Shown here: piece after piece, positions 1 through 3,000 of the stretch
Numbering within the stretch: the first letter of the stretch is position 1
Layout of the letters: each line of letters starts with the position of its first letter
Assembly: GCA_040398005.1 (NCBI GenBank)
Contig: JBBAUX010000010.1
Coordinates: 1 to 64,000 of the forward strand
Length of the DNA: 64,000 bases
Direction of reading: 5' to 3'
Source of the DNA: Opitutales bacterium
GTDB lineage: Bacteria > Verrucomicrobiota > Verrucomicrobiia > Opitutales > UBA953
Position numbers: made by a program

Positions 1-3000
1 CCTGAAGCGATTCGGAATATGGCGGCGTAGCCGATATTACCAGCAGCACCCGTTACAGAAACACGAATAGGAGATTTTGAAGCCATAGAGTAGATTATCT
101 AGATACTTATCGGGTGAAGTGTGAAGCGGAAATTTTTATAAATCGAACTCTCCCTGCATACTGTCCTCACGAGCAGGTAAACTGAGACTATCTTGGACCA
201 GTTGTGATACCGTGAGTTGGGACCGACCCTCCCCGGCGCAAAGCGTCCTTAAAATAAGGGCCGAAGCGAGGGCATCATAAAGTGCACTGTGATACTTGCG
301 ACGCTGTGGCGGACAATAGCGCTCGGCTAAGACGTCTAACTGACCCTGTAACTTAAAAAGCTTAATCAGTGAGGCTAATTTATAGTCACCCAAGGTGGGC
401 AACCAAAGTCGGGCCAAACGACACGAGTCAATCCAAGGCCCCCACTCGGCGGTCTGTGTGCCTTCCTCCAGTGAAGGAACTGCCGAAGGCCTTGGCCAGG
501 TTAGCCGCAGTAACTGAGATTCCACTGTAGCATTATGGGCCACAAAGATTCCAGTACGACGGAGGGAAACCCAATAATCCCATTCACTTTCAAAAGGAGT
601 CTGATTAATTAAATCCCGATCACTCAATCCATGACATTGCGTATCCAGTGTGGATAGGTTCGCACGGGCACCCTGTATTTTGGTCGCCGTAGCAAAAATT
701 TCTTTCTTCAATAACGTAACCACACCGTACTCGATTACGCCTGTACGATTACTGCCTTCGAAATCGACGACATGAAGAGGCAAGTCCGACCAAAGTGTTT
801 TACCAGCAAACTGCATTAATAATTTTTATATCACCCGACCGATTTAGTCAAATGACCCTTTAGCGCCACTCGTGCTTGGGGTAACGACCTTTTAATTCCT
901 TTTTAACCAACTCATAAGACCCCTTCCAAAATGCGTCTAAATCTGTGGTACGTTGCTGGGTGCGACGAGCAGGCGACTGAATGCATATCACCATCGGCAC
1001 CCTACCTTGGCATACCTTAAGTTTAGAGCCGGGAACATCGTACAGTTCTTGCACTGTCGCCTCAATCAAAGCCTCACCGTCATTGGTATACTCAATTTTC
1101 GCAGGATGCTTCTTGCGGGGTAATAGTATTTTTTCAGGACAGTAGGAATCTAAAGCTAATAATTGCTCGTGGGTTAACCAGCCACGTACGACAGACATGA
1201 CCGGACGATCTCGAATATCGCGATAGGCAACGGCGCCCTGACAAATTTCTTCCACCACCATTCGTTTTCCCGATTCATCAAAGACGGGAATGCTTAATTC
1301 GGGACAGTGCTTCGCTAGAAAATTCAATCGGTTGATCCAAGCGTCTACCGTATTGTCCCACTTTTCTAATTCTAATCTTCCAGCCAGAACTTCGGTCGCC
1401 AGCAGCTGCGAAGCTTCATCGCTCGTGGCGCCCTCTCGTTCGCTCGACTCTAAAACTAAATCACGGAAGCGTCGCTCCACCCTTGTCACCGCTCTTCGCT
1501 GCGTCGCATCATACTTAACAAAATTCTGATTAAAGAATTCACTTGGGAATAATTCTTTTAACCATTCTTCTTTAATTTCCGTGGCTAGACTTAAAAATGT
1601 GGTCACTTCGCCTCGTGTTTGAATTTCATCAATCTCAGCAGCGACCAAAAGTTTGGCCGAGCGAACCATTGATTCACGTCTTAATTCACCACGGCGATTA
1701 TGCACTAAGGCACAGCGCAAAGTTCCCGCATCTAAGCGCACTGCTAATCGATCAATAAATCCAACTAAAATAGCTTTTTGAATTTGTTCGGGTAAGGCAG
1801 GCTCATTATTTATTTTGAAACCCTGGCCGTCGGCTATTCTTAAAAACTGTTGAGCCGCTTGGTCGGCTTGGCGAGCTGCCTGACCTTGAATACCCAACCT
1901 CTGACAAGCATCCGCGTCGAATTTTAGGTCTTTGGCTTTTTGTAATAATGCTATTCGTAAAAAAAAGTCGGAGCCTTCTGACGTTTTAATATTTTCACGG
2001 GCGCGCTCGGCAGACTCATCAACTTTTCTTAGTAAAATATCCCGCCCTTGGCTGAGTCCAGCAATCGTCGCCACTTCGCTCACACAATTAAGTTCAGCGG
2101 CTGCCATCAACATGTGCGCATAGCGTGGGTGCGCTGGGAATACCGCCATTTTTTTACCGAGCGGGCTTAAGAGATTATTTTTATCAATCGCCCCAATGTC
2201 TTTCAAAACTGTGAATGCCTGCGCGAGCGCTTGAGCATTCGGACTCTCATACCACGGGAAATTCTCAACATCACTCCAGCCCATTGATAAGAGCAATAAA
2301 ATGGTTTCTGTTAAATCCATCCGCTTGATCTCGGGAGTTTCGCGGAGCGGACGTGATTGATGGTCGGTATGTGACCACAGGCGAATGCAGCGACCCGGAC
2401 CCGTCCGACCAGCACGCCCCGCACGCTGTTCAGCTGAGGCCTGTGCAATAGGCTCAATCAATAAGGTATCAATTCCGCGAATAGGATCGTAGCGGGCAAT
2501 GCGAGCCAGTCCGGCATCTACCACCATGCGAACTCCTGGAATAGTTAAAGAAGTTTCCGCTACATTGGTTGCGACGATTACCTTACGCTGATTAGATTCC
2601 TGCACGGCATTATCCTGATCACTTACTGAAAGTTCTCCGTGCAAGGGTAAGACCTGCACGCCACCAGCTTCTTTTAAAAACCTAACTGCGTTAATCGTTT
2701 TCATAATTTCATACGCACCTGGCATGAAAACTAGAATGTCTCCCGTTGGCTCTTCACGTAATAATCGGGCTACTTGCTCAGCTACCCTGTCCCAAATAGG
2801 TTGAGTGGACGTTCGTATTGTCGGTGCGTATTCTACTGCCACAGGGTAAGTCCGTCCGTCGGATATTAAAGTCTCCGCCGGTTTAAGCCATTGTGAGACC
2901 CCGGCGGTATCCAGAGTAGCCGACATGACTACTAATAATAAATCCGGGCGGTGTTTCTCCTGAAGTTGACGAGCCAAACTCAATGCGACATCGGAATGGA

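What a model noticed while it worked through the whole genome (the two positions that open the first line are those of the whole stretch)
136..816. Unannotated DEDDh exonuclease with C-terminal clamp motif, universal in Opitutales
g01194 (226 aa, no Pfam row) is an intact DEDDh 3'-5' exonuclease with a C-terminal Q-x-E/D-L-F-like clamp motif, single-copy in every Opitutales genome searched, including 0.8-0.9-Mb reduced ones, and absent elsewhere in the phylum. It is a candidate clamp-tethered second proofreader or primer-processing nuclease in a lineage that mostly lacks Pol I.
Evidence so far: 41 of 41 order genomes; profile hits 20 of 20 Opitutales, 0 of 81 others at E<=1e-25. D18, E20, D130, H176, D181 invariant in 30 of 30; Q221 in 26 of 30; strict Qx[EDG][LM]F in 10 of 30 versus 4 of 1299 proteins. 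Model pLDDT 93.5; best folds ExoX (E 2e-9), PolC exonuclease, Pol III epsilon. Complex with DnaN: ipSAE 0.57, best control 0.01, 'weak support' (passes at <=0.60: 18 of 157 solved, both of 2 mismatches; contacts agree >=90%, partner pLDDT >=85).
(Added by a program. Inside this text positions count along the whole contig: contig position 1 is position 1 of the stretch shown here. "Call 12" and the like, gene names such as g00115 and contig names such as C1 are that model's own, and its searches are not shown. The text may have been shortened before it was handed on; [...] marks where a part breaks off. The agent that wrote the report below was given it as the finding of a first reader that could run no searches.)

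Follow-up and report, generated by a model that had tools for sequence, protein, structure and literature searches.

The report
Clamp-tailed ExoX-like exonuclease of Opitutales
This gene encodes a DNA-trimming enzyme with an unusual active site that every sampled member of one bacterial order keeps, most with a short tail predicted to dock on the replication clamp; it is probably a helper in error correction, and tail-less relatives occur elsewhere in the phylum.

Summary
The ORF (136-816, minus strand, 226 aa) is real, intact and single-copy in 121 of 121 order genomes. Three claims need correcting. (1) The catalytic set is D18/E20/E99/H176/D181. E99, not D130, aligns with E. coli epsilon D103 and ExoX D85, so the site is DEEDh, invariant in 121 of 121. 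(2) It is not absent elsewhere: a tail-less DEEDh sister clade is in 90 of 201 other phylum genomes. (3) The clamp-motif tail is real (Q221 in 96 of 121) but lost in 14 of 24 genomes of 1.1 Mb or less. The closest structure is ExoX (Z 21.3). DnaE keeps an intact PHP site (19 of 19), so this is not an E. coli-type epsilon. It does not track Pol I loss: 102 of 170 other class genomes lack both. Best reading: a clamp-recruited, ExoX-like 3'-end trimmer for post-replicative repair (0.42); a mycobacterial-style second proofreader is the close rival (0.30). Clamp binding and activity were not tested. New variant of a known kind.

The parts
136..816 (-). ORF, 226 aa, DnaQ-fold 3'-5' exonuclease of ExoX type with a DEEDh site
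757..765 (-). Motif I, D18-F19-E20 (DFEG in 121 of 121; short ExoX-like loop follows)
520..537 (-). Motif II, H94 to E99; E99 stands where epsilon has D103 and ExoX has D85
   Evidence: ExoX residues from PMC3753628
445..492 (-). About 15-residue insertion (residues 109-124) found in the order's proteins and not in the sister clade
   Evidence: alignment A3
427..444 (-). W125-G-P-W-I-D130 signature shared with the sister clade; D130 aligns with epsilon D129, outside the four-acid set
274..315 (-). C168-P...R172 loop and motif III, H176 and D181
139..156 (-). C-terminal clamp-motif-like hexapeptide Q221-G-E-F-D-L226, on a low-confidence tail after a linker helix
   Evidence: binding not tested
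860..3391 (-). Upstream co-directional HrpB-type helicase gene (context; shared only with the same-genus genome among loci L002-L051)
3391..3846 (-). Metallophosphoesterase gene (context)
3846..5357 (-). dnaX-like clamp-loader subunit gene, three genes upstream on the same strand (context)
3..86 (-). Start of the downstream gene, cut by the contig end; probably malate dehydrogenase
   Evidence: the matching neighbour in G027 is malate dehydrogenase

Best explanation
An accessory, ExoX-like 3'-5' DNA exonuclease. D18, E20, E99 and D181 hold two metals and H176 activates water (inferred from the DnaQ mechanism; the Asp-to-Glu change is taken as compatible with activity). It removes one or a few nucleotides from mismatched or unpaired 3' ends. 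In most Opitutales a flexible C-terminal Gln-led motif docks it on the beta clamp, which places it on new DNA behind the fork. There it supplies the 3'-to-5' excision and end-trimming step of MutS/MutL repair and related clean-up, while DnaE's own PHP site does the main proofreading. The tail raises local concentration but is dispensable. SHOWN: fold, invariant DEEDh residues, order-wide single-copy retention, motif enrichment, intact DnaE PHP, sister clade. INFERRED: activity, DNA as substrate, clamp binding, pathway.
For: ExoX is the top structural match, Z 21.3, rmsd 1.9 over 166 of 167 residues, against Z 18.8 for epsilon; profile score 117 against 90. ExoX acts in mismatch repair on ssDNA and dsDNA (PMC3753628, passages). 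ExoX's complementary-strand residues are kept in the tail-less sister clade (R104 position basic in 46 of 46, R87 position in 39 of 46) and less so in the order (R104 position R/K in 63 of 121), as if a tether replaced intrinsic DNA grip (inference). MutS1 in 121 of 121 order genomes, MutL in 5 of 5. The sister gene abuts mutS on the same strand in 13 of 19 fetched genomes of family f37. Other 3'-5' repair exonucleases are scarce: ExoI 0 of 5, ExoVII not found in the single-contig 0.88-Mb genome G003 and found in the other 4 of 5, and PF00929 finds nothing in 64 of 121. DnaE PHP motif intact in 19 of 19 and in four named species in the supplement of PMC12926913. The genome's solo flap endonuclease ends in QGELF, so this motif type occurs on another DNA enzyme here.
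Against: The mutS linkage is one genus (g97), so one event; no order locus showed it, and the common neighbours there are a HisN-like gene and gyrA. E. coli's repair exonucleases are redundant (PMC8744996), which fits poorly with 121 of 121 retention. E. coli ExoX does not group with the family in either tree, NCBIfam's ExoX model scores sister proteins at 37-40 bits against a cut-off of 202, and the ExoX wedge Leu-Gln is not conserved. Structure cannot separate repair from proofreading. The tail is missing in 14 of 24 small genomes.
Confidence: 0.42

Rival explanations
1. A second replicative proofreader of the mycobacterial type: it shares the clamp with DnaE, does not bind DnaE stably, and removes mispairs that the PHP site handles poorly.
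For: Same logic as mycobacterial DnaQ, which has a C-terminal Q[Y/L]ALF motif, binds the clamp, works beside an active PHP site, and whose motif is dispensable in vivo (PMC11348249, passages). That matches the tail losses here. Single copy in 121 of 121 and the only PF00929 match in this genome at E up to 1. Polymerase exonuclease domains and epsilon are close folds (Z 19.0, 18.8).
Against: No BRCT domain, which the mycobacterial enzyme needs. 116 of 170 other class genomes have no strong match to the family and 100 of 170 have no PF00929 match at 1e-8, so the class replicates without it. ExoX fits better than epsilon.
Confidence: 0.3
2. The main proofreading epsilon subunit, bound to DnaE as in E. 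coli.
For: Source names of 120 listed homologues epsilon or epsilon-like; E. coli epsilon also has a clamp motif just after the nuclease domain (PMC3664792).
Against: The protein ends at the motif and lacks the alpha-binding segment that follows it in E. coli (residues 209-243). DnaE PHP is intact in 19 of 19. Far below the dnaQ model cut-offs (21 bits against 223).
Confidence: 0.07
3. A stand-in for lost Pol I functions (its 3'-5' editing domain, or primer processing) in a lineage without Pol I.
For: 102 of 121 order genomes lack full-length Pol I; a solo FEN takes its place almost one for one and carries a motif-like tail in 28 of 71.
Against: Kept in all 19 genomes with Pol I, whose DEDDy site is intact in 15 of 15 parsed. 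Outside the order: 34 have both, 20 the nuclease only, 14 Pol I only, 102 neither, of 170 (hand cross-count). Primer removal is a 5'-3' task that FEN covers. Pol I loss with solo FEN in Verrucomicrobia is already published (PMC12926913).
Confidence: 0.07
4. A sanitiser that removes chain-blocking or modified nucleotides from 3' ends, domesticated from mobile nucleotide-modification operons; or an RNA exonuclease or weakly active enzyme.
For: The nearest outside group (DxEG motif, motif-like tail in 12 of 21, motif II Glu in 5 of 21) has plasmid relatives between a radical SAM gene and an AAA gene, with HD, thymidylate synthase or NDK genes nearby (2 of 2 regions opened). The base-stacking Phe before the motif II acid is lost. 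RNA exonucleases are among the fold matches (Z 17.4).
Against: Only two operons were opened and the outside group is a separate clade. Short DHH and PF01612 proteins that could cover small-RNA decay are in 5 of 5 genomes. Five invariant catalytic positions argue against a dead enzyme, and a DEEDh site is active in coronavirus ExoN (PMC7654266).
Confidence: 0.14

Closest known systems
E. coli exonuclease X (ExoX)
   Same: Best structural match over the whole domain, including the short motif I loop and the last helices; the sister clade keeps basic residues at ExoX's complementary-strand positions.
   Different: Motif II Glu instead of Asp85; no Leu12/Gln13 wedge; a 15-residue insertion; a Gln-led tail instead of ExoX's C-terminal part; not grouped with ExoX in trees; far under the family cut-off.
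Mycobacterial noncanonical DnaQ (PMC11348249)
   Same: Standalone DnaQ-fold nuclease, C-terminal clamp motif that can be dispensed with, coexisting with a PHP-active DnaE1.
   Different: No BRCT domain; DEEDh site; mutator and clamp-binding data exist there and not here. Its sequence was not compared directly.
E. coli Pol III epsilon (DnaQ)
   Same: Fold (Z 18.8), two-metal site geometry by alignment, clamp motif after the nuclease domain.
   Different: No alpha-binding C-terminal segment; partner DnaE has an intact PHP site; motif II Glu.
Coronavirus nsp14 ExoN (PMC7654266)
   Same: DEEDh catalytic signature, shown there to be active and exchangeable with DEDDh.
   Different: RNA substrate and viral complex; only a chemical precedent, no relationship tested.
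Unnamed DxEG exonucleases of radical SAM / AAA / HD operons (P0211-P0268, L430, L431)
   Same: Similar length, DxEG motif I, frequent C-terminal Gln-led motif; next-best group in the profile search.
   Different: Mostly Asp at motif II (16 of 21), scattered taxa (Myxococcales and Paenibacillus named), plasmid relatives in operons, separate clade.

Membership tests
DnaQ-fold (DEDDh) 3'-5' exonucleases | DnaQ fold | tested here: met
   Z 21.3 to ExoX, 18.8 to epsilon; pLDDT 92.2
DnaQ-fold (DEDDh) 3'-5' exonucleases | Motif I D-x-E and motif III H-x4-D | tested here: met
   121 of 121
DnaQ-fold (DEDDh) 3'-5' exonucleases | Motif II aspartate (strict DEDDh) | tested here: not met
   Glu in 121 of 121 order and 46 of 46 sister proteins; Asp in 23 of 23 outgroup proteins
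DnaQ-fold (DEDDh) 3'-5' exonucleases | Metal-dependent 3'-5' exonuclease activity | not testable with these tools
   needs an assay
E. coli-type Pol III epsilon | Alpha-binding segment after the clamp motif | tested here: not met
   protein ends at the motif; E. coli layout from PMC3664792
E. coli-type Pol III epsilon | Partner DnaE with an inactive PHP site | tested here: not met
   intact in 19 of 19; four named species
E. coli-type Pol III epsilon | Stable complex with DnaE | not tested
ExoX | NCBIfam ExoX model over cut-off | tested here: not met
   not listed for the window protein; 37-40 bits against 202 for two sister proteins
ExoX | Leu-Gln wedge and basic complementary-strand residues | tested here: inconclusive
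   basic residues kept in the sister clade, partly in the order; wedge not conserved
ExoX | One clade with E. coli ExoX | tested here: inconclusive
   ExoX falls unresolved among outgroups on a long branch in two quick trees; no clade test run
Mycobacterial noncanonical DnaQ | C-terminal clamp motif with PHP-active DnaE1 | tested here: met
   sequence level only
Mycobacterial noncanonical DnaQ | BRCT domain | tested here: not met
   no such domain in 226 aa
Mycobacterial noncanonical DnaQ | Mutator phenotype synergistic with PHP loss | not testable with these tools
   needs genetics
Beta-clamp-binding proteins | Gln-led five- or six-residue motif on a flexible end, above background | tested here: met
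   42 strict and 91 loose of 121, against 3 and 30 of 1277 background ORFs; 0 strict and 1 loose of 126 sister loci; patterns post hoc
Beta-clamp-binding proteins | Physical binding to DnaN | not tested
   no complex was folded; this assembly has no dnaN match

The most novel reading that the evidence does not exclude
Opitutales run a clamp-organised DNA-finishing kit without Pol I, like PCNA with FEN1 in archaea and eukaryotes: a standalone 5' flap nuclease and an essential DEEDh 3'-5' editor each dock on the beta clamp through their own tails, and lineages that lose one tail tend to keep the other (FEN tail in 13 of 21 genomes whose exonuclease lacks the motif, against 15 of 50 where it has one; kin not independent). 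The enzyme would be a bacterial DNA proofreader with the DEEDh site otherwise known from nidoviruses.
Probability: 0.15. Interest if true: 0.72.

Novelty: new variant of a known kind. Interest (0 to 1): 0.42.

Why it matters
Most bacteria with a PHP-active DnaE also keep DnaQ-like nucleases whose role is unclear. This family is a clean test case: single-copy in every sampled genome of an order down to 0.8 Mb, with natural variants with and without the clamp tail, and cultured hosts in both branches (source names include Lacunisphaera and Pontiella). Its motif II Glu also means that a screen which counts only DEDDh as active (the rule in PMC12926913) would pass over it. It is not a new kind of system: clamp-tailed auxiliary DnaQ nucleases and Pol I loss in this phylum are both published.

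Tried and rejected
No complex was folded, so neither DnaE nor DnaN binding was tested. The wide structural search was not run; the second-look alignment was. Rejected: order-specific family (score-threshold effect); D130 as catalytic acid; tie to Pol I loss; conserved replication operon (neighbours are a HisN-like gene in 17 and gyrA in 9 of 30 order loci; no neighbour cluster spans both clades in more than a few loci); real absence of dnaE and dnaN in this organism (119 of 121 and 40 of 41 order genomes have them; assembly 93.9% complete); CRISPR or defence role (PADLOC gives only generic DEDDh and PDC-S48 domain hits, and no cas genes were among the neighbours scanned). Promoter and terminator scan at chance level (8 against 6.8, 6 against 6.7). 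The motif II tally used a faulty pattern and was replaced by the alignment count. Dropped rows: L070 (script picked a wrong frame), L049 (a canonical DEDDh, moved to the outgroup), three duplicate loci, 23 near-copies thinned before the tree, four Pol I loci not parsed. Earlier-findings look-ups returned nothing.

Full report
OBSERVATION. Window 136-816 (-) is an open 226-aa frame. It passes no Pfam or NCBIfam cut-off, but 24 of the 120 listed homologues already carry names such as Pol III epsilon or 3'-5' exonuclease. The model (pLDDT 92.2) matches DnaQ-fold nucleases; the second-look alignment ranks ExoX first (Z 21.3, rmsd 1.9, 166 aligned), then DinG and polymerase exonuclease domains (19.4, 19.0) and epsilon (18.8). 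A 36-row profile finds the gene in 121 of 121 order genomes, single-copy, including 0.8-Mb ones.

ACTIVE SITE. In a joint alignment D18, E20, E99, H176 and D181 fall on E. coli epsilon D12, E14, D103, H162 and D167, and D130 falls on D129. Profile alignments put E99 on ExoX D85, which PMC3753628 lists as catalytic with D6, E8, H134 and D139 (passages). E99 is Glu in 121 of 121 order proteins and 46 of 46 sister proteins, and Asp in 23 of 23 outgroup proteins; 78 of 80 further sister loci show Glu by pattern. The enzyme is therefore DEEDh. Such a site is active in coronavirus ExoN and exchangeable with Asp there (PMC7654266, passages). That the site is active here is inferred from invariance.

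DISTRIBUTION. But 19 of the 20 outside hits that I fetched (chosen from the best-scoring rows) share GPW[IV]DT, the loop before motif III, the last helix and the motif II Glu, and end before the tail. A profile of these finds them in 90 of 201 non-order phylum genomes at E 1e-35 and in 54 of 170 non-order class genomes. Named records include Pontiella, Kiritimatiellales, Lentisphaeraceae and Akkermansia. Two quick trees (SH-aLRT only) join order and sister clade at 97 and 92. The family is thus phylum-wide but patchy, and universal only in this order. A third, taxonomically scattered group with a DxEG motif, mostly Asp at motif II and a motif-like tail in 12 of 21 lies outside. Because of it I cannot say whether the tail was gained in the order or lost in the sister clade.

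THE TAIL. In the last 14 residues a strict motif occurs in 42 of 121 and a loose one in 91 of 121; Gln is at the aligned position in 96 of 121. Background is 3 and 30 of 1277 crude ORFs, and sister loci give 0 and 1 of 126. The patterns come from a recalled consensus and were fixed after seeing the data. Five- and six-residue motifs are both described (PMC3664792, passages); the window's QGEFDL is of the six-residue form. One of the three strict background hits is the genome's solo flap endonuclease. The tail is lost in families f4, f7 and f32 (14 of the 24 genomes of 1.1 Mb or less), in 3 of 5 f22 genomes and in f23, while the catalytic core stays. Binding was not tested.

REPLICATION CONTEXT. 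DnaE1 keeps the full PHP metal site in 19 of 19 genomes (20 fetched, one dropped; six positions by pattern, the remaining His by eye), as the supplement of PMC12926913 also records for four named species (rows seen). The protein has no alpha-binding extension, so an E. coli-type epsilon is unlikely. Full-length Pol I is in 19 of 121; a FEN domain is in 120 of 121, fused in those 19 and solo otherwise. That pattern is published for Verrucomicrobia (PMC12926913, passages and section 15). The exonuclease does not follow it: it stays beside Pol I with an intact DEDDy site (15 of 15 parsed), and outside the order 102 of 170 genomes lack both (hand cross-count). MutS1 is in 121 of 121. In five test genomes MutL is in 5, DHH proteins in 5, ExoI in 0 and ExoVII in 4, missing from the single-contig 0.88-Mb genome. 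In family f37 the sister gene directly follows mutS in 13 of 19 fetched genomes, all of one genus. In the order the neighbours are uninformative.

MECHANISM. I favour an ExoX-like trimmer of mismatched or unpaired 3' ends, brought to new DNA by the clamp and used in mismatch repair and related clean-up (0.42). ExoX's complementary-strand basic residues are kept in the tail-less clade and partly lost in the tailed one, which fits a swap of intrinsic grip for a tether; this is inference. Against it: ExoX does not group with the family, the wedge is absent, the mutS link is one event, and repair exonucleases are redundant in E. coli (PMC8744996, passages). A second proofreader as in mycobacteria, where the clamp motif is real yet dispensable (PMC11348249, passages), is nearly as good (0.30), but the BRCT domain needed there is absent. 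Epsilon (0.07), Pol I stand-in (0.07) and nucleotide sanitiser or RNase (0.14) share the rest.

LITERATURE. Searches listed no paper on this family or on a bacterial DEEDh DNA exonuclease; I saw listings only for papers not cited above, and the library lacks most subscription journals. The supplement of PMC12926913 was cut when stored, so I did not see its DnaQ assignments or DnaE-DnaQ models, which may include these proteins. The ESM Atlas gives automatic names of epsilon or 3'-5' exonuclease type, with look-alike clusters in Spirochaetota and Planctomycetota that I did not follow.

VERDICT. A real, conserved, apparently undescribed DEEDh branch of ExoX/DnaQ-like nucleases with a lineage-variable clamp tail.

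Noticed in passing
L254:1084-2109 (-) (G000:C3) and L304-L314, L370-L429: The solo flap endonuclease ends in QGELF in this genome; a motif-like tail is on 28 of 71 order FENs (15 strict), more often where the exonuclease has lost its own (13 of 21 against 15 of 50). One search listed no paper on a clamp motif in a standalone bacterial FEN.
   Followed up: partly
L367:470-1081 (-) (G000:C2): 203-aa protein with no convincing Pfam or NCBIfam match and a strict motif (QLELF) near its end; it looks like a restriction-endonuclease-type fold by eye (recalled resemblance, untested).
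   Followed up: no
L368:426-1448 (-) (G000:C3): 340-aa HAD-like hydrolase ending in QGNLFE, the third strict motif hit in this genome.
   Followed up: no
L430:3859-7650 and L431:2200-6175: Plasmid operons of radical SAM + DxEG 3'-5' exonuclease + AAA protein, with an HD protein or thymidylate synthase and NDK; no NCBIfam match for the two L430 proteins scanned and in PADLOC only a weak dGTPase hit for the HD protein. Possibly an undescribed nucleotide-modification system.
   Followed up: partly
G000 whole assembly: No match to dnaE or dnaN although rated 93.9% complete; 1.44 Mb against 2.3 Mb for the same-genus genome, so probably an assembly gap.
   Followed up: partly
class sample: 122 of 170 non-order class genomes have no full Pol I match and 100 of 170 no PF00929 match at 1e-8, so many may rely on PHP proofreading alone; PF00929 does miss divergent families such as this one.
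   Followed up: no
L105, L107, L118 and L364-L366 (family f7): These small-genome copies lack about 25 residues between motifs I and II (matches split; sequences of L105 and L107 seen) as well as the tail, yet keep all five catalytic residues.
   Followed up: no
window 3-86 (-): Start of a probable malate dehydrogenase gene cut by the contig end.
   Followed up: yes
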